The notes: generated from the sequence alone by a model not told the origin. A stretch of 32,000 nt of DNA from Thermoproteus tenax Kra 1 (GCF_000253055.1 NC_016070.1:570001-602000), one strand, 5' to 3'. Shown: positions 6,704 through 31,201, numbered from the stretch's first letter. Program-made: numbers and translations.

Positions 6704-6991
6704 ATGGAGTTGGGCATCCAGTTGGCGTACTTAAGGCGGTTTCCGCCCGACAAAAGGATGGAAGTATTGAGGAGGAGGGAGAGGAGGGGCCTCGCGTTTA
6801 ATATGTCCATGTTGGAGAGGAGCGGACTACCGGGCCCTCATAAGGCCAGGATACTCAGGACCTACCTCAAGGTGGCCGCCTACGTGCACCCAACCACTAG
6901 GGCCATGTCTGACAATATCGATGAAGAGCTAGAGAGAAGAGCTCTGGAGTCCATCCACTTAATATTCAAGGCAGTAGTAAAAAATAAGTAG
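6704..6991 (+). CDS. Hypothetical small basic protein
   Basis: 95-aa ORF with protein-like composition. No family recognised. Confidence 0.4.
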   Translation: MELGIQLAYLRRFPPDKRMEVLRRRERRGLAFNMSMLERSGLPGPHKARILRTYLKVAAYVHPTTRAMSDNIDEELERRALESIHLIFKAVVKNK

Positions 6992-8738: not shown

Positions 8739-10451
8739 TTATAATATTACTTGTTCCCAGGGATACCTCTTACTCCATTTTTCCTCCCTTAACCTCTTGA
8801 GCTCCTCCATCATACTCTCAAATTCAGCCCTCTCTATACGTCTGAAGAGCGGTTGCACATCTCCGAGAGCTACGCCCGGATCGGGCCTTCTGGTCGCCTC
8901 TCTCCACAAGATGGGCGGCCTCAGTCCCATCATCTGCCAGAGCCTCTCCATCGATGCGGGCACCACTGGGTACATAATTATTGCAACGTTTCTCACGGCC
9001 CAATAGGCGTTGTACATTATAGTATTCGCCTCCTCTGGCCTCTCCTTCGCCGCTTGCCAAGGGGCCCTCAAATTGAGATATCTATTTCCCTCCCTAGCCA
9101 ACTCGACCGCTGTAGCCAAGGCATCTTTCAACTCTATTCTTTCGTAGTGCTCCTCCGCCTTCTTGGTGAGCTCCTGTATCTTGGCCGCGAAGGCCTCGTC
9201 CTCCGCCGTTGAGGCTCCAGGCGCGGGGACGACTCCCTTCATCCTGCTCTTTATGAACGAGAGGACGCGGTGGACGAAATTCCCCACATCGTCGTTCATA
9301 ATCTTGTTAATTATATCCAGAGCGGTTGCCCACGTGAAATCCACATCTCTGTTCTCGGGCCTTAAATACACTAGGACGAAACGCCAGTAGTCGGCCGGCA
9401 TAAGCTTCAAGGCCTCGTCGATCCATATGCCCCACCTCCTGCTCTTAGATATCTTGTCTCCCTCGTATGTGAGATACTCTGTGGACGACGTAGTGAGCCT
9501 AGTGGTGTAGCCCTCGCCGCTTGCGAAGATCAGCGCCGGCAGTATAATCACGTGGAACGGTATATTGTCCTTGCCTACGAAGAACACAGCCTTCGCCGAG
9601 GGGTCCTTCCAGAAGTACTCCCACTTCTCCGGCTCCCCTCGCGCCTCAAAATACTCCTTGACCGCAGAAATGTACCCCAACACGGCCTCGAACCACACGT
9701 AGATAGTCTTGCCCTCGGCTCCGGGGAACGGGGCCGGTATGCCCCATCTGTTGTCCCTAGTTATGGCCCTGGCCCTCAGACCTTCTCTGAGTATTGACAA
9801 GGACATCTCCCGGGCGTTCTGGGGGAGCTCGCTGTTGTTCTCCACGTATCTCTTCACGGGCTCCTCCAGCCTCTTTAAATCTAGATACCAATGTTTAGTT
9901 TTGCGCCACTCAGGCTTGGCGCCACAGATTGCGCATTTCGGCTCTACGAGGAGCCGCGGCTCGAGGAGTCTGCCGCACCTCTCGCACTGATCTCCTCTCG
10001 CCCTCTCATATCCGCAGTATGGACATTTGCCTATAATGAATCTATCTGGCAGAAAGATCTTGTCGTTGGGACAGTACGGGAGCTCATCCTCTTGTATAAA
10101 TATATAATTATTTTTATATATTTTTTCAAAAAATTTTCGAACAAACCCAATATGAGTTTCACTATGTGTATGAGTATATAAATCGAATGAAATATTCCAA
10201 CGTTTAAACAGCTCCGACACTATCTCGTGCATCCGCATGGCGTACTCTTTGGGGTCCACGCCCAACTGTATCGCCTCTACCTCTATAGGCGTTCCATGCA
10301 TGTCTGAGCCCGACACAAACACAACTTCGTGTTCCCTCATCCTTAGGTACCGTGCGTATACGTCTGCAGATAGCACTGAGCCTATCATGTTGCCTATATG
10401 GGGGACCGTCTGTACGTAGGGCCACGCACTGCCTATAATGAACTTTGCCAT
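8739..10451 (-). CDS. metG: Methionine--tRNA ligase, catalytic (alpha) polypeptide without the C-terminal tRNA-binding domain
   Basis: HIGN motif ([19 protein letters not shown]), zinc knuckles ([18 protein letters not shown]...CAICG) and KMSKS-type loop (KISKSRRWG). Confidence 0.95.
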
Positions 10452-10501
10452 GGGACGAGATCCTTCTGATTCTATAAAAATTTCGAGATCTCCTCCTGGG
10501 A

Positions 10502-11206
10502 TCAGCGGCCGAACCTCCTCTGCCTTCTTGTGTACTCCTCTAGTATCTCTCTTAGGTCCTCCTTCTCTATCTCGGGCCAGTACTTATCTAAAAAGAAGAG
10601 CTCAGTGTACGCACTCTGATACAGGAGGAAGTTGCTCAACCTCTTCTCGCCGCCCGTCCTAATAAGTATGTCCGGCTCCGGGTACTGGAGATAGCTCGTG
10701 TCGAGACAATTGAACAAGCTAGTCTCATTCAATTCCGCCAGTCTAACCTCGCCGTTTATGATCCTCTTGATGCACCTCACTATCTCCGCGCGTCCACCAT
10801 ACCCCAGGGCCAATGTGAGGTCGTAATCGCCGTACCTCTCAGTCTCTTTCTCGAGCTTCTCCATCTCCTCCACTAGATCCCGCGGCAGAATTGATCTATC
10901 TCCGATGAATCTAACTCTGACCCTGTTGTCGTGAATTATGGGATCTTCCCGCGTCCTCCTTATTTCGTCCTTGAATACTCTGAAGAGGAGCTCCAGCTCG
11001 GCCTTGCTCCTCTGCAGATTTTCGGTGGAGAGCGCGTAGAAGGTCATATGTTTTATCTCCCTATATTCAAGGACCCAGGTGGCGAATTTCCTCACCTTCT
11101 CCACGCCCCTCCTATAGGCCTCCAGGAAACTCAGCCCATATTTCTTGGCGTATCTCCTATTGCCGTCCGGTATAACTGCGATGTGTTTCGGAAGTCTAAC
11201 AGACAT
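10502..11206 (-). CDS. uppS: Cis-prenyltransferase (undecaprenyl/di-trans,poly-cis-polyprenyl diphosphate synthase)
   Basis: [49 protein letters not shown]. Confidence 0.93.
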
Positions 11207-27076: not shown

Positions 27077-29824
27077 ATGCCTAAAAAGTACGTCTTCGAT
27101 TTCGATGAAGCCGACTATCGAAATAAGAGGCTCTTCGGCGGCAAGGGCGCCAGCTTGGTACAGATGGCGCAACTGGGCCTCAGAGTGCCGCCGGGCTTTA
27201 TAATAACAACTGAGGCGTGTAAAGACTTCTTCGGGCCCAAGAGGGAGGAGATAGCGGAGCTCGAGGCACAATTAGCCAGACAGCCGCCGCCGGATGTCAG
27301 AGATGCGCTTATCACAAAGTTGTTCTCAATAATAGATAGCTTAGATCTGCCACAGGGACTGTGGGAGGAGGTCGTGGAGCATATGAAGAGGCTAGAGGAC
27401 AGAACAGGCCGTAGATTCGGCGATCCGAAGAATCCCTTGTTGGTCTCCGTGAGATCCGGCGCGGCTGTGTCGATGCCTGGCATGATGGACACAGTGCTCA
27501 ACCTCGGCCTAAACGATGAGACCGTTAAAGGCCTCGCCGAACAGACCAACAACGAGTGGTTCGCCTACGATGCATATAGACGCTTTATTAATATGTTCGG
27601 AAGAATTGTATTAAATATAGATGATAAACTATTCTCAAAAGCATGGGATGATATTAAGAGGAAATATGGCGTAAAGGAGGATCCGCAGATGCCGATCGAG
27701 GGCCTAAAGGAGGCAGTTGAAATATTTAAGAAGATAGTGGCAGAGAGCCGCGGAGCCTTCCCGCAAGACCCTTGGGAGCAGTTGAAGTTGGCCATAAAGG
27801 CTGTGTTTCGATCTTGGGATAGCCCAAGGGCTATCTTCTATAGAATCGCCGAAAAGATAACAAGCGATATCGCCGACTGCACCGCTGTGAATGTAGTCAC
27901 TATGGTGTTCGGCAACATGGGCTGGGACAGCGGAACAGGCGTCGTCTTCTCGAGGGACGTGGCCACTGGAGAGAACAGGCTATATGGAGAGTTTCTCCCT
28001 GTGGCTCAGGGAGAGGACGTTGTGGCAGGGATAAGGACCCCCATGGATATAGACGAATTCAAGAAGAGGTTTCCACATTTATATGAAGAGTTATATAATG
28101 GTGTTAAGTTATTAGAAAAAGTAAATAAAGATGTACAAGACGTAGAGTTCACTGTAGAGCGCGGGAGACTCTACTTCCTGCAGTGTCGCAACGCCAAAAT
28201 GACTCCCATGGCGAGGGTCAAGACGGCCGTTGATATGGCCAAAGAGGGCATAATAACTAAGGATGAGGCTCTGATGAAGGTCTCTCCAGAGCATGTCCTC
28301 CAGCTCCTTTATCCGCGCATCGATCCTAAGGCAAACGCGAGGCCCATCGCCAAAGGACTGCCCGCGAGCCCTGGCGCCGTCTCGGGGCAATTAGTGTTCA
28401 ATCCGGACGATGCCGTAAAGTGGGCCCGCGATGGAAAAAAGGTTGTGCTCGCCAGAGTTGAGACAAAGCCCGACGACGTCCACGGCTTTTACGCGGCCGT
28501 GGGCATTTTGACCACAAGAGGGGGTATGACCTCACACGCGGCTGTTGTCGCTAGAGCTATAGGCAAACCTGCCGTTGTCGGAGCGGAGGACGCTGTTGTG
28601 GATGAACAGAACAAGGTGTTGAGAGCGGGCGGCCTAATATTGAAGGAGGGGGACTGGGTGACTATCGATGGAAACACAGGCCTTGTATATCCAGGTGTGG
28701 TCCCAACGTTGGAGCCAGAGCTGATACCTGAGCTAGAGGAGCTGTTGAGGTGGGCCGACGAAGTGAGGAGGCTCGGCGTTAGGGCCAACGCCGATCTTCC
28801 AGAGGATGCCGCCATAGCCAGAAAGTTCGGCGCAGAGGGGATAGGGTTGTTGAGGATAGAGCGGATGTTCAGAAAGCCTGAGCGCCTCGACCTCCTTCGT
28901 CGGATAATTTTGGCAGAAAATAGAGAGGAGAGAATAAAACATCTGGAACAGCTCTATAGGATGTTAAAGGAGGATTTCAAGGCGATCTTCGAAATAATGG
29001 ATGGATTGCCCGTAGTAGTAAGGCTCATAGATCCTCCGCTCCACGAGTTCCTGCCGAAGCCGGAGGAGGTGCTTCAACAGATATGCGAGGGGAGGATGTC
29101 AGGTAAAGATGTGTCCTCATTGGAGAGGCTGTACAATAGATTGAAGGCCCTGCAGGAGGCCAACCCTATGTTGGGCCATAGAGGTGTGCGCGTGGGGGTG
29201 AGCTACCCCGAGGTCTACTATTATTTGACCAAGGCTATCGCGGAGGCCGCCTCAGAGCTCAAGAAAGAGGGCCGCAACCCGGTCGTAGAGATAATGATAC
29301 CTCAGGTGAGCGACGTAAGGGAGATTAAATATGTAAAGGAAAAGGGAATAATGCCGGCGCTGAGGGATGTGGAGGAGAGCTCCGGAGTTAAGTTAGATAT
29401 CAAGATAGGCACTATGATAGAGACTGTGCGCGCTGCGCTCACCGTAGAGAAAATAGCGCGAGAGGTCGACTTCATCAGCTTCGGCACAAACGATCTCACG
29501 CAGGCCGTGTTTAGCTTCAGCAGAGACGACGCAGAGAACAAGTTTATACCGCAATACCTCGACCTCAAGATACTCGACGCAGATCCTTTCGAGACGTTGG
29601 ATCCAGAGGGTGTGGCTAAGCTGGTCGAGCAGGCTTCCAGGTCGGCCAAGGAGGCTAACCCGGCCATTGAGGTTGGGGTCTGCGGCGAACACGGCGGCGA
29701 GCCGAAGTCCATATCGCTCTTCAGCAGAATGAAGATAGATTACGTCAGCGCCTCGCCGTTTAGGGTTCCTCTGGCTAGACTTGCGGCCGCTCAAGCGGCT
29801 ATCGCAAGCTCCAAACGTGAGTAG
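27077..29824 (+). CDS. ppdK: Pyruvate, phosphate dikinase
   Basis: 915 aa. N-terminal ATP-grasp (GGKGASLVQMAQLGLRVPPGF), phosphohistidine swivel domain (TTRGGMTSHAAVVARAIGKP) and C-terminal PEP-utilising TIM barrel (FISFGTNDLTQ...CGEHGG). Confidence 0.97.
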   Translation: MPKKYVFDFDEADYRNKRLFGGKGASLVQMAQLGLRVPPGFIITTEACKDFFGPKREEIAELEAQLARQPPPDVRDALITKLFSIIDSLDLPQGLWEEVVEHMKRLEDRTGRRFGDPKNPLLVSVRSGAAVSMPGMMDTVLNLGLNDETVKGLAEQTNNEWFAYDAYRRFINMFGRIVLNIDDKLFSKAWDDIKRKYGVKEDPQMPIEGLKEAVEIFKKIVAESRGAFPQDPWEQLKLAIKAVFRSWDSPRAIFYRIAEKITSDIADCTAVNVVTMVFGNMGWDSGTGVVFSRDVATGENRLYGEFLPVAQGEDVVAGIRTPMDIDEFKKRFPHLYEELYNGVKLLEKVNKDVQDVEFTVERGRLYFLQCRNAKMTPMARVKTAVDMAKEGIITKDEALMKVSPEHVLQLLYPRIDPKANARPIAKGLPASPGAVSGQLVFNPDDAVKWARDGKKVVLARVETKPDDVHGFYAAVGILTTRGGMTSHAAVVARAIGKPAVVGAEDAVVDEQNKVLRAGGLILKEGDWVTIDGNTGLVYPGVVPTLEPELIPELEELLRWADEVRRLGVRANADLPEDAAIARKFGAEGIGLLRIERMFRKPERLDLLRRIILAENREERIKHLEQLYRMLKEDFKAIFEIMDGLPVVVRLIDPPLHEFLPKPEEVLQQICEGRMSGKDVSSLERLYNRLKALQEANPMLGHRGVRVGVSYPEVYYYLTKAIAEAASELKKEGRNPVVEIMIPQVSDVREIKYVKEKGIMPALRDVEESSGVKLDIKIGTMIETVRAALTVEKIAREVDFISFGTNDLTQAVFSFSRDDAENKFIPQYLDLKILDADPFETLDPEGVAKLVEQASRSAKEANPAIEVGVCGEHGGEPKSISLFSRMKIDYVSASPFRVPLARLAAAQAAIASSKRE

Positions 29825-29895
29825 TCAGACTGGGACGGCTCTTTCATTTGATCGGCATATCGGAATTCATCACTAGAGACAACGCTCATATCTCG

Positions 29896-29913
29896 CTTAA
29901 AAGCTTAATAAGC
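29896..29913 (+). promoter_or_regulatory. TATA-like box upstream of the SRP RNA block
   Basis: CTTAAAAGCTTAATAAGC. The TTAATAA part (29905-11) lies ~25 nt upstream of the first G/C-rich bases (~29934). Confidence 0.4.
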
Positions 29914-29933
29914 TCGTGGGTGTGCAATAACAG

Positions 29934-30265
29934 CCCCGGGAGATCGTCCCCGAAGGAGCACCCTTAAGCCGCCGGGTAGTGCGTTCGAGGGGGCTCCGGG
30001 GCGGATGACCCGCCGACACGCCGCGTGGGCCGGCGCGGCTGGTCGGACGGGGGTTGCAGTGGGCTGGACGGGCGCCGCCTGTCCCTCCCTCCGGAGCCCT
30101 AGGTCAGGGGGGCCCGTAACTCCGCCGGCGCCGGCCGTCGCTCCCACGTGGGCGGTCTGGCGGGCGATGAAGCCTCGGCCCTCGGGGCCTGCCCAGCCGG
30201 CGTACCCAAGCCGTAGGGCTTGGCGGCGCCGGCGAAGGCGGCGAACCAGGGGAGGTCCGGGAGAG
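29934..30265 (+). ncRNA. Signal recognition particle (7S) RNA, apparently circularly permuted (breakpoint in the helix 8 apical loop)
   Basis: Very GC-rich ~330-nt block with no credible ORF. Its 3' end AACCAGGGGAGGUCCGG (30244-60) matches the helix 8 5' strand. Its 5' end GGAGCACCCUUAAGCCGCC (29955-73) matches the helix 8 3' strand, and the two ends pair collinearly. A helix-6-like hairpin with a GNAR loop GUAG lies at 30206-23, and a GUAAC motif at 30116-20. Details are in the findings. Confidence 0.7.
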
Positions 30266-31201
30266 CTATATCTTTATTTCGGCCAAAGTGTCGTCGGTAT
30301 AGACGTCCTTGATCGCTAGGATGTCGCCCGAGTAGATCCCAATCTTGGGCCTTACCGCCCTATAGGGCCCAGCCTTGCTTGAGAAGATAGTGTAGACCAC
30401 AGAGTTGTGCCGCACGAAGCCCTGTTCCACGTATAAGTGGCCTCTGACTATTCCCTTGAGCCCCTCTCTCTTGAGGAACTCTGCGGTGGGCCTTCTGCCG
30501 TAGAGCCAGATGCCAGGTCCTCTAGGGCTCGGCATATAGCTCTCGCAGTCGCATGGATCGTTCCACAGAGCCTGAAAGGCGAGGGGGTCCTCGGGCAGAG
30601 TGAGGTCCCCCCTTACGGCCTTGAGCTCCTCCAGTGCTGCGGGCTCCATCGAGGGCTCCTTGAGGGGCACGCCGCCGTGGACGGCCAGAAGTACGTCGTT
30701 TATTTTAGCGGCCAGAGGCATGCGCGCGAACATCTTCTCTATTTCGCCGTAGAGCTCCGCGCAGTTGGGGAGTCTCTTCAAAAGACATAGCTCATCTATG
30801 AACCCCCCGTCCTCGTTCATAAGCGGAGACTCGTGGTTGCCCCTCAGGACGTAGGCCCTCCCCTCGAGGTAGAGGCCGACGACGGTCTTCAGAACCTCAA
30901 GTCCGTGTCTCCCTCTGTCGACGTAATCTCCAAGAAAGAGGAGCTTTTTATTGCCCCATTTCTCCAAGATGATGTCCAACGTGTCTCTGTCGCCGTGTAG
31001 ATCCCCTACGATGACCAGTTCCTTCTCTCTGATATCTAGCACTAAGCCCCCCTCGGCGAACTTAGCCGCCGCCTCCCGGAAGAGCTCCTTCAAGTCCACA
31101 GCCACGAGCCGTTGTGTTAATTTTACGGTTACGTCAGCCTGAATAGGCGAGAGGCGTTGTAGTAGACTCTGTCCACTACATCGTCCTCGCTCATGCGCCA
31201 T
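30266..31201 (-). CDS. PPP-family Ser/Thr protein phosphatase (calcineurin-like metallophosphoesterase)
   Basis: GDLHGD, GDYVDRG, RGNHE and VHGG motifs. The longest ORF overlaps tatD by 73 nt. The GTG at 31105 (V33) is a likelier start, 23 nt after the tatD stop. Confidence 0.88.
   Translation of the reverse strand: MAHERGRCSGQSLLQRLSPIQADVTVKLTQRLVAVDLKELFREAAAKFAEGGLVLDIREKELVIVGDLHGDRDTLDIILEKWGNKKLLFLGDYVDRGRHGLEVLKTVVGLYLEGRAYVLRGNHESPLMNEDGGFIDELCLLKRLPNCAELYGEIEKMFARMPLAAKINDVLLAVHGGVPLKEPSMEPAALEELKAVRGDLTLPEDPLAFQALWNDPCDCESYMPSPRGPGIWLYGRRPTAEFLKREGLKGIVRGHLYVEQGFVRHNSVVYTIFSSKAGPYRAVRPKIGIYSGDILAIKDVYTDDTLAEIKI

What the first reader, a model, noticed from the sequence alone, without database searches (positions are those of the whole stretch)
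29934..30272. Circularly permuted SRP RNA gene: the two strands of helix 8 lie at opposite ends of the gene and the flanks fold into a BHB-like splice motif
The GC-rich block between ppdK and the phosphatase gene has no credible ORF.
- **3' end of the block:** It reads GGCGG-CGAACCA-GGG-GAGG-UCC-GG (30237-30260). This matches the conserved 5' strand of SRP RNA helix 8 (E. coli 4.5S: ACCAGGUCAGGUCCGGAA; the GAACC...CAGG...CCGG pattern of archaea and human). No GNAR loop or AGCA strand follows, because the convergent CDS stops at 30266.
- **5' end of the block:** The missing strand is here, as GGA-GCA-CCC-UUAAG-CCGCC (29955-29973).
- **Pairing of the ends:** The two ends pair collinearly: UCC/GGA, GGG/CCC and GGCGG/CCGCC. 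This recreates the symmetric loop (GAGG opposite GCA, one nt short of the canonical AGCA) and the asymmetric loop (CGAACCA opposite UUAAG).
- **Other SRP elements:** A helix-6-like hairpin CCAAGCC-GUAG-GGCUUGG with a GNAR loop (30206-23) sits just upstream of the helix 8 5' strand. A GUAAC Alu-domain-like motif is at 30116-20. The gene order is therefore helix 8 3' strand, helix 5 3' strand, Alu domain, helix 5 5' strand, helix 6, helix 8 5' strand.
- **BHB-like fold:** Outside the UCC/GGA stem, trailer GGGA (30259-62) pairs with leader UCCC (29947-50). It is flanked by unpaired GAG (30263-65) on one strand and CGAA (29951-54) on the other. An imperfect outer helix follows (30266-72 with 29940-46, 5 of 7 pairs). 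This is the helix/bulge/4-bp helix/bulge/helix geometry recognised by the archaeal splicing endonuclease.
- **Direct repeat:** An 8-nt direct repeat CCGGGAGA marks both ends (29936-43 and 30257-64).
- **Loop restoration:** Joining UCCGG to AAGGA would restore a GGAA tetraloop. Canonical cuts after the second bulge nucleotide would instead give a larger loop, so the exact junction is uncertain.
- **Precedent:** As I recall, permuted SRP RNA matured by BHB cleavage and circularisation has been reported for Thermoproteus. If this genome is not one of those, it extends the phenomenon.
Basis: partly seen in the sequence, partly recalled or inferred. Interest (0 to 1): 0.8.

Follow-up and report, generated by a model that had tools for sequence, protein, structure and literature searches.

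The report
Known permuted SRP RNA, Thermoproteus tenax
This is the circularly permuted signal-recognition-particle RNA gene of Thermoproteus tenax, whose transcript is cut by the tRNA splicing enzyme and joined into a circle. It was published for this exact organism and locus in 2015, so the reading is correct but not new.

Summary
The window is Thermoproteus tenax: its ppdK is 100% identical to the T. tenax protein. Every oligonucleotide published by Plagens et al. 2015 (eLife 4:e11623) for the T. tenax permuted SRP RNA matches the window exactly. Their constructs place the mature RNA at 29955-30263 (309 nt, the published length), and they join G30263 to G29955.

- **Rfam:** The native gene fails Archaea_SRP (13.5 bits). 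Cutting the stretch at 30263 gives 36 bits, E 3.6e-7, 3'-truncated one base past the helix 8 tetraloop.
- **Covariation:** Nine distinct homologues rotated into canonical order give 113 pairs, 96% paired. 23 pairs show compensatory change, three of them in helix 8, which spans the gene ends.
- **Two details are wrong:** The junction gives UCC-GGGA-GGG followed by a full AGCA, not a GGAA loop. The BHB central helix is CCCG (29949-52) with CGGG (30258-61), which puts both published cuts after the second bulge base.

In passing: related Thermoproteus genomes carry the SRP unit and a neighbouring C/D box sRNA in three different arrangements.

The parts
27077..29824 (+). ppdK (pyruvate, phosphate dikinase), the upstream flanking gene
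   Evidence: ORF. Pfam PPDK_N, PEP-utilizers and PEP-utilizers_C. 100% identical to a protein named 'pyruvate, phosphate dikinase [Thermoproteus tenax]' on a 1,841,542-bp contig.
29825..29873 (-). C/D box sRNA (C box GUGAUGA to D box CUGA), convergent with ppdK and divergent from the SRP RNA gene
   Evidence: Box pattern and conserved guide regions CCGAUAU and GCCGUCCCAG are shared with orthologues in 13 related loci. Weak C/D-box family matches on the minus strand. The paper reports a C/D box sRNA next to the SRP RNA gene.
29905..29910 (+). TATA box TTAATA of the SRP RNA gene
   Evidence: Exact match. [quoted passage not shown]
29932..29954 (+). 23-nt leader of the precursor, removed at the BHB. 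It contains one copy of the CCGGGAGA repeat (29936-43).
   Evidence: Leader length from the paper, counted back from the mature 5' end fixed. The start at 29932 is inferred, not read from data here. Repeat.
29949..29952 (+). BHB central helix, leader strand CCCG, pairing with 30258-30261
   Evidence: 4 of 4 pairs and invariant in all 11 homologues. This is the only register that puts both published cuts after the second base of a 3-nt bulge (my inference).
29953..29955 (+). 5' bulge A-A|G, cut between 29954 and 29955
   Evidence: The published BHB substrate and 'open' construct start the mature RNA at GGAGCACCC = 29955. The bulge is AA|G, CA|G or AC|G in homologues.
29955..30263 (+). Mature permuted SRP RNA, 309 nt, circularised by joining G30263 to G29955
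   Evidence: The published S-domain construct joins 30248-30263 directly to 29955-30002. The length of 309 nt equals the published length.
29955..29973 (+). Helix 8, 3' strand: GG (tip stem), AGCA (symmetric loop), CCCU, UAA (asymmetric loop), GCCGCC
   Evidence: Folds. Compensatory changes with the 5' strand in homologues (helices 9 and 10).
29974..30057 (+). Helix 5, 3' strand
   Evidence: helices 5-7; 16 pairs with a change on both sides.
30058..30119 (+). Alu-like small domain: three hairpins closed by GGGCU/GGCCC, followed by GUAA. No helix 1.
   Evidence: The paper states that helix 1 is absent. Assigning these hairpins to helices 2-4 is my inference.
30120..30194 (+). Helix 5, 5' strand
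   Evidence: The distal part aligns to Archaea_SRP model positions 114 onwards.
30196..30233 (+). Helix 6 with GNAR tetraloop GUAG (30213-16), the SRP19 site
   Evidence: The only part of the native gene that matches Archaea_SRP (13.5 bits, model 143-180). The paper's GNAR mutant alters exactly this loop.
30237..30263 (+). Helix 8, 5' strand (GGCGGC, GAACC, AGGG, GAGG, UCC), GGGA tetraloop (30259-62) and G30263, the first base of the 3' strand
   Evidence: Archaea_SRP alignment, 3'-truncated, 36 bits, E 3.6e-7, model 114-210.
30258..30261 (+). BHB central helix, 3' strand CGGG. In the mature RNA these bases are C58 of the tip stem and the first three loop bases.
30262..30264 (+). 3' bulge A-G|A, cut between 30263 and 30264
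30264..30279 (+). Trailer, ending in a T-rich run (CTTTATTT, 30272-79) that is a likely terminator. It overlaps the stop codon of the phosphatase gene.
   Evidence: Sequence. The BHB substrate extends to 30272. The terminator role is inferred.
30266..31201 (-). Metallophosphoesterase / protein phosphatase gene (ppa), the downstream flanking gene. The real start is probably GTG at 31099 (277 aa).
   Evidence: ORF. Pfam Metallophos, 78 bits. A 277-aa homologue at 99% identity begins MDLKELF, which corresponds to codon 35.

Best explanation
The block is the circularly permuted SRP (7S) RNA gene of Thermoproteus tenax.

1. Transcription starts about 22-27 nt downstream of the TATA box at 29905-10, near 29932. 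The gene order is helix 8 3' strand, helix 5 3' strand, Alu domain, helix 5 5' strand, helix 6, helix 8 5' strand.
2. The 23-nt leader and the short trailer fold with the gene ends into a BHB motif. Its central helix is CCCG 29949-52 with CGGG 30258-61.
3. The tRNA splicing endonuclease cuts after A29954 and after G30263.
4. The ends are ligated into a 309-nt circle, presumably by RtcB.
5. Ligation restores the helix 8 tip: UCC, the GGGA tetraloop, GGG, and the AGCA side of the symmetric loop. The circle can then bind SRP19 and SRP54.

Shown in the literature for this sequence: circular junction reads, cleavage of a BHB substrate by the recombinant endonuclease, and weaker SRP19/SRP54 binding to the open form. 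Shown here: identity with that sequence, the structure, and its covariation. Inferred: RtcB as the ligase, the exact transcription start coordinate, and the BHB register.
For: **Identity with the published case**
- ppdK is 100% identical to the T. tenax protein, on a 1.84-Mb contig.
- All published T. tenax constructs and probes match the window exactly. These are S-domain P1 (30172-30247), P2 (30248-30263 joined to 29955-30002), the open construct, the two BHB substrate arms (29942-59 and 30257-72) and both Northern probes.
- The paper places the gene between ppdK and ppa, gives 309 nt, a 23-nt leader, a TTAATA box and an adjacent C/D box sRNA. All of these are present here.

**Covariance model**
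- There is no Rfam hit at gathering score in the native window, and only helix 6 matches at 13.5 bits.
- When the stretch is ended at 30263, Archaea_SRP aligns model positions 114-210 at 36 bits, E 3.6e-7. The match is flagged 3'-truncated and ends one base after the tetraloop.

**Structure**
- Fold z-score is -4.21.
- Nine distinct homologues rotated into canonical order give 113 consensus pairs. 96.1% of cells are paired and 23 pairs have a change on both sides. No shuffle (0 of 500) reaches the observed values for the percentage paired, the both-sides changes or the covariation score.
- Helix 8, which spans the gene ends, has three such pairs, for example A30248-U29964 becoming U-A or G-C.

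**BHB**
- The central helix and both 3-nt bulges sit at the same positions in all 11 homologues, while the bulge bases vary.
Against: - The native gene does not reach the Rfam gathering score. I could not run the rotated sequence through the Rfam model.
- The 5' part (29955-30062) gives no truncated Archaea_SRP match on its own.
- The same truncation trick on the most divergent homologue gives only 12.6 bits, E 0.49.
- The minimum-free-energy folds of mini-constructs prefer the GGA/UCC register over the one I propose. The two registers are close in energy, and I chose between them using the published cut sites, not energy.
- The outer BHB helix is poor in T. tenax.
- Junction reads, cleavage and protein binding come from the paper and were not re-derived here.
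Confidence: 0.97

Rival explanations
1. It is an ordinary linear SRP RNA gene that the covariance model misses only because of unusual composition or divergence. The end-to-end pairing would then be helix 1 or part of helix 5, not helix 8.
For: Archaeal SRP RNAs are long G+C-rich hairpins, so the ends of any such gene pair. The native hit is weak.
Against: - The SRP54-site motifs lie at the two gene ends, in the order 3' strand then 5' strand.
- The Rfam alignment stops at the gene's 3' end, one base past the helix 8 tetraloop, and is flagged as truncated.
- The Alu-like hairpins and GUAA sit in the middle of the gene.
- The published constructs join 30263 to 29955.
Confidence: 0.01
2. It is a decayed remnant (pseudogene) of a rearranged SRP RNA gene, and the working SRP RNA is encoded elsewhere.
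For: Only 32 kb of the genome could be inspected here. No canonical SRP RNA is in that window, which says nothing about the rest of the genome.
Against: - The same permuted gene sits at the same locus in at least 10 other Thermoproteus assemblies and contigs.
- These copies are 74-84% identical, with 23 pairs kept by changes on both sides. That indicates selection on the structure.
- The paper reports that no canonical gene is found in T. tenax. It also reports Northern signals, circular junction reads and SRP19/SRP54 binding.
Confidence: 0.01
3. The block is protein-coding (ORFs 30005-30319 on the + strand, 104 aa, or 29905-30147 on the - strand, 80 aa), or is some other structured RNA unrelated to SRP.
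For: Mechanical ORFs exist, as is usual in G+C-rich DNA.
Against: - Homologues differ by 1- and 2-nt indels (lengths 309, 307 and 304 nt), which would shift any reading frame.
- Substitutions follow base pairs, not codons.
- The Archaea_SRP match has E 3.6e-7.
Confidence: 0.01

Closest known systems
Permuted, circularised SRP RNA of Thermoproteus tenax and T. uzoniensis (Plagens, Daume, Wiegel, Randau 2015, eLife 4:e11623; PMC4731332)
   Same: It is the same object. It has the same flanking genes, the same 309-nt mature RNA, the same junction, the same leader and TATA box, and the same neighbouring C/D box sRNA. Sequence is identical over every published oligonucleotide.
   Different: Nothing differs in the window itself. 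The comparison with 10 further loci (three arrangements of the SRP unit and the sRNA) is not in the text of the paper as I read it. I could not see its figures.
Canonical archaeal SRP RNA (Rfam RF01857, Archaea_SRP)
   Same: - Helix 6 with a GNAR loop.
- Helix 8 with GAACC and UAA in the asymmetric loop, GAGG and AGCA in the symmetric loop, and a GNRA tetraloop.
- A long helix 5.
- An Alu-like end followed by GUAA.
   Different: The gene is rotated by more than 100 nt, so the transcript ends lie in the helix 8 tip. Helix 1 is missing. The mature form is circular. The native gene fails the family's gathering score.
Archaeal BHB-dependent processing of permuted or circular RNAs: split and permuted tRNA genes, circular pre-rRNA intermediates, and permuted 23S rRNA in Thermococcales (PMC7758197)
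   Same: The same enzyme logic applies. A helix formed by distant parts of a precursor presents a BHB to the splicing endonuclease, and the cut ends are ligated.
   Different: Here the product is the SRP RNA. Ligation repairs a protein-binding hairpin tip rather than a tRNA body or an rRNA processing stem.

Membership tests
Permuted circular SRP RNA of Thermoproteus (Plagens et al. 2015) | Gene lies between ppdK and the ppa phosphatase gene | tested here: met
   ORFs and Pfam.
Permuted circular SRP RNA of Thermoproteus (Plagens et al. 2015) | Sequence identical to the published T. tenax constructs, giving a mature length of 309 nt | tested here: met
   Nine published sequences or sequence segments match exactly. 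29955-30263 is 309 nt.
Permuted circular SRP RNA of Thermoproteus (Plagens et al. 2015) | Transcript termini lie at the tip of helix 8, with helix 8 strands at opposite gene ends | tested here: met
   Fold, 3'-truncated Archaea_SRP alignment, and covariation in helix 8.
Permuted circular SRP RNA of Thermoproteus (Plagens et al. 2015) | Circular junction reads, cleavage by the splicing endonuclease, and binding of SRP19 and SRP54 | not testable with these tools
   Experimental results, reported in the paper for this sequence.
Archaeal SRP RNA (Rfam RF01857) | Reaches the family's gathering score (96.5 bits) | tested here: not met
   No hit at gathering score. Best native match 13.5 bits; 36 bits when cut at the junction. 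A covariance model cannot follow a rotated order, so this failure is expected. The rotated sequence could not be submitted.
Archaeal SRP RNA (Rfam RF01857) | Helix 6 GNAR tetraloop and the helix 8 SRP54 motif (xAGG / AGCA symmetric loop, GNRA loop) | tested here: met
   GUAG at 30213-16. After ligation, GAGG, UCC, GGGA, GGG, AGCA. These bases are invariant in all homologues.
Archaeal SRP RNA (Rfam RF01857) | Helix 1 joining the 5' and 3' ends at the Alu domain | tested here: not met
   Continuous sequence at 30055-30062 with no extra helix. The paper says helix 1 is absent.
Bulge-helix-bulge (BHB) substrate of the archaeal splicing endonuclease | Central 4-bp helix flanked by two 3-nt bulges on opposite strands, with the cut after the second bulge base | tested here: met
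   CCCG/CGGG with AA|G and AG|A. This is the only register consistent with both published ends, and it is invariant in 11 of 11 homologues. The register is inferred; the minimum-free-energy fold prefers a neighbouring one.
Bulge-helix-bulge (BHB) substrate of the archaeal splicing endonuclease | Stable helices on both sides of the bulges | tested here: inconclusive
   The inner helix is 2 bp and then continues as helix 8. The outer helix is irregular in T. tenax and most relatives, but is 7 bp in L040. The paper calls the T. tenax enzyme family the most relaxed in BHB recognition.

The most novel reading that the evidence does not exclude
The window itself holds nothing new. The most novel reading left open comes from the relatives.

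The SRP unit and the orthologous C/D box sRNA occupy one intergenic site in three arrangements: SRP then sRNA on one strand, sRNA then SRP on one strand, or SRP inverted as in T. tenax.

In the commonest arrangement the C box starts 4-9 nt after the BHB 3' cut, with no AT-rich promoter in between. The splicing endonuclease may therefore release both RNAs from one precursor.

The first two arrangements are rotations of each other. That would fit an ancestor in which a canonical SRP RNA gene carried a BHB intron, hosting the sRNA, in the helix 8 loop. Tandem duplication and loss would then give the permuted forms. On this view T. tenax is a derived inversion that acquired a shared, near-palindromic TATA element.
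Probability: 0.25. Interest if true: 0.5.

Novelty: already known. Interest (0 to 1): 0.15.

Why it matters
The phenomenon is striking. A universal ribonucleoprotein RNA is encoded back to front and made functional only by the tRNA splicing machinery closing it into a circle. However, it was discovered and tested in this organism in 2015.

For the scan, this is a useful positive control. A reader with no tools recovered a real and unusual feature that the Rfam covariance models miss in this window at their gathering scores.

The comparative side observation, three arrangements of the SRP unit and the C/D box sRNA, bears on how permuted RNA genes arise. The paper left that question open.

Tried and rejected
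As a substitute I ended the searched stretch at the mature 3' end, which allows a truncated alignment. The same trick gave nothing for the 5' part and only 12.6 bits, E 0.49, for the divergent homologue L040.

2. **Canonical relatives for a rotated covariance model.**
- A junction-spanning 21-mer (GGAGGTCCGGGAGGGAGCACC) found nothing in the metagenome contigs.
- A 5'-strand pattern found only permuted genes plus chance hits.
- No SRP RNA lies within 10 kb of ppdK in Pyrobaculum oguniense, P. calidifontis or a Pyrobaculum-like contig.
- None lies within 10 kb of the phosphatase orthologue in P. islandicum, P. neutrophilum, Vulcanisaeta souniana or Caldivirga maquilingensis.
- No canonical comparator was obtained, and the custom model was not built.

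3. **Exact-protein look-ups of the window's own genes.** Both failed. For the phosphatase, probably because the ORF I translated starts upstream of the likely real GTG start. For ppdK, no gene with that product is on record. The genome-contig scan returned no 100% match either. The organism was identified and from the published oligonucleotides.

Both were rejected against the published junction and against conservation.

5. **The 8-nt direct repeat as a duplication scar.** It is kept only as speculation. It is short, overlaps the near-palindromic CCCGGG, and is only partly conserved in relatives (CCGAGAGG).

Full report
**What is there**

Window 29934-30272 lies in a 73% G+C block in a genome of about 54% G+C. 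The block sits between a 915-aa ppdK gene (27077-29824, + strand) and a convergent metallophosphoesterase gene (30266-31201, - strand; the probable real start is GTG at 31099). The 8-nt direct repeat CCGGGAGA at 29936-43 and 30257-64 is real.

**Identity of the locus**

The ppdK protein is 100% identical to 'pyruvate, phosphate dikinase [Thermoproteus tenax]' on a 1,841,542-bp contig.

Plagens et al. [quoted passage not shown] They report:
- a 309-nt RNA with a 23-nt leader;
- an adjacent C/D box sRNA;
- circular junction reads;
- a BHB motif cut by the recombinant splicing endonuclease;
- weaker SRP19/SRP54 binding to the open form.

Their supplementary oligonucleotides all match the window exactly:
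- S-domain P1 at 30172-30247;
- S-domain P2 as 30248-30263 joined directly to 29955-30002;
- the open construct;
- the BHB substrate arms at 29942-59 and 30257-72;
- both Northern probes.

The mature RNA is therefore 29955-30263, which is 309 nt as published, and the constructs join G30263 to G29955. TTAATA is at 29905-10. The finding is the published case, in the same organism.

**Model-based test**

Rfam finds nothing at gathering score in the 32-kb window. In the native context only helix 6 matches Archaea_SRP, at 13.5 bits and E 1.1.

A rotated sequence cannot be submitted to the tool. Instead I ended the searched stretch at the mature 3' end. Archaea_SRP then aligns model positions 114-210 to 30167-30263 at 36 bits, E 3.6e-7, flagged as 3'-truncated. 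The alignment assigns:
- U56-C57-C58 as the 5' strand of the tip stem;
- GGGA (30259-62) as the tetraloop;
- G30263 as the first base of the 3' strand.

So the gene stops one base beyond the helix 8 loop. The other half (29955-30062) gives no match on its own, as expected for strands that have lost all their partners. The same trick on the most divergent homologue is weak: 12.6 bits, E 0.49, model 127-211.

**Structure and covariation**

The 309-nt RNA folds, linear or circular, into four elements (z = -4.21):
- helix 8: 29955-73 with 30237-58;
- a long helix 5: 29974-30057 with 30116-30194;
- helix 6: 30196-30233;
- an Alu-like end of three hairpins followed by GUAA.

I collected homologues from Thermoproteus assemblies and hot-spring metagenomes. 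They are 74-84% identical, and all are permuted in the same way.

Nine distinct sequences rotated into canonical order give a consensus of 113 pairs. On these pairs:
- 96.1% of cells are standard pairs, against 39-51% with partners slid by 1-3 columns;
- 23 pairs have changes on both sides, against 2-6 when slid and 7.7 +/- 2.0 in shuffles (0 of 500 shuffles reach the observed value).

Helix 8, which spans the gene ends, has three such pairs. For example, A30248-U29964 is U-A in six sequences and G-C in one. Length differences of 1-5 nt among the homologues rule out a coding reading.

The published junction is G30263-G29955. It gives UCC / GGGA / GGG followed by AGCA (29957-60). The 3' side of the symmetric loop is therefore the canonical four bases, not 'one nt short'.

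The published cuts are after A29954 and after G30263. The only register that places both cuts after the second base of a 3-nt bulge, as the two-fold symmetry of a BHB requires (established knowledge of the motif), is this one:
- central helix CCCG 29949-52 with CGGG 30258-61;
- bulges A53 A54|G55 and A62 G63|A64.

That register is invariant in 11 of 11 homologues, while the bulge bases vary.

Minimum-free-energy folds prefer the neighbouring GGA/UCC register, so the two are close in energy. My choice rests on the published ends, and I could not see the paper's Figure 4A. The outer helix is irregular in T. tenax but is 7 bp in L040. This fits the relaxed specificity the paper describes for this endonuclease family.

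**Seen in passing**

The orthologous C/D box sRNA is at 29825-29873 on the minus strand. Written with the phosphatase gene reading rightwards, the site has three arrangements:
- **(I)** phosphatase, then SRP, then sRNA, all rightwards, then ppdK leftwards. Confirmed with both flanks or the sRNA in eight loci.
- **(II)** the SRP unit inverted. Seen in T. tenax and L039.
- **(III)** sRNA before SRP on the same strand. Seen in L040.

In (I) the C box begins 4-9 nt after the BHB 3' cut, with no AT-rich stretch between them. This suggests a shared precursor.

Pyrobaculum has neither the SRP RNA nor the sRNA next to ppdK or next to the phosphatase gene.

**What failed**

No canonical SRP RNA from a relative could be retrieved. 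A rotated covariance model built from canonical genes was therefore not made.

**Verdict**

It is already known, for this exact sequence. Interest for discovery is low. The comparative arrangement data are a minor lead.

Noticed in passing
window 29825-29873 (- strand); L002 6220-6267; L007 8087-8134; L039 6761-6808; L040 7183-7230: An orthologous C/D box sRNA (guides CCGAUAU and GCCGUCCCAG) accompanies the permuted SRP RNA gene in every Thermoproteus locus examined. The order and orientation differ: SRP then sRNA on one strand in most loci, sRNA then SRP in L040, and divergent in T. tenax and L039.
   Followed up: partly
L001 6217-6222, L002 6215-6220, L003 6232-6242, L007 8134-8143: In the commonest arrangement the C box starts 4-9 nt after the BHB 3' cut of the SRP precursor, and the intervening DNA is G+C-rich with no TATA-like element. 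The sRNA is probably made from the SRP trailer, with its 5' end set by the splicing endonuclease.
   Followed up: no
window 29896-29912; L039 about 6826-6838: In the two loci with a divergent SRP gene and sRNA, the spacer holds a near-palindromic AT-rich element (GCTTAAAAGCTTAATAAGC in T. tenax, TTTAATAAAC in L039). It lies roughly 22-28 nt from both RNA starts and may be a shared bidirectional TATA element.
   Followed up: no
window 29936-29943 and 30257-30264: The leader repeats the last bases of the gene plus the first trailer base (CCGGGAGA). Relatives keep a weaker version (CCGAGAGG). It could be a scar of the duplication that permuted the gene, or a by-product of the CCCGGG palindrome. 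This is unresolved.
   Followed up: partly
L036, L037, L038, L041, L042 compared with L039, L040: Gene order breaks between Thermoproteus and Pyrobaculum exactly at the SRP/sRNA site. In Pyrobaculum, ppdK is followed by two small ORFs and a diphthamide synthase gene, and TatD-phosphatase abuts the dCTP deaminase gene. No SRP RNA lies within 10 kb of either gene.
   Followed up: partly
window 30266-31201 (- strand): The longest ORF (311 aa) probably overstates the phosphatase gene. Close homologues are 275-284 aa, and a 99%-identical protein starts at the GTG at 31099. The SRP trailer overlaps this gene's stop codon.
   Followed up: yes
L015, L016, L018, L019, L025 (for example L018 about 10375-10540): Five metagenome contigs picked up by chance share an unrelated conserved element. 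An AT-rich promoter-like stretch is followed by GGCGGGGGGUGUCAAGGAAAAACGACCGCGGCGAACCAGGGCAGGCCCGGGGCUUGCUGC...GCCCCGCC. It may be a small RNA and was not examined.
   Followed up: no
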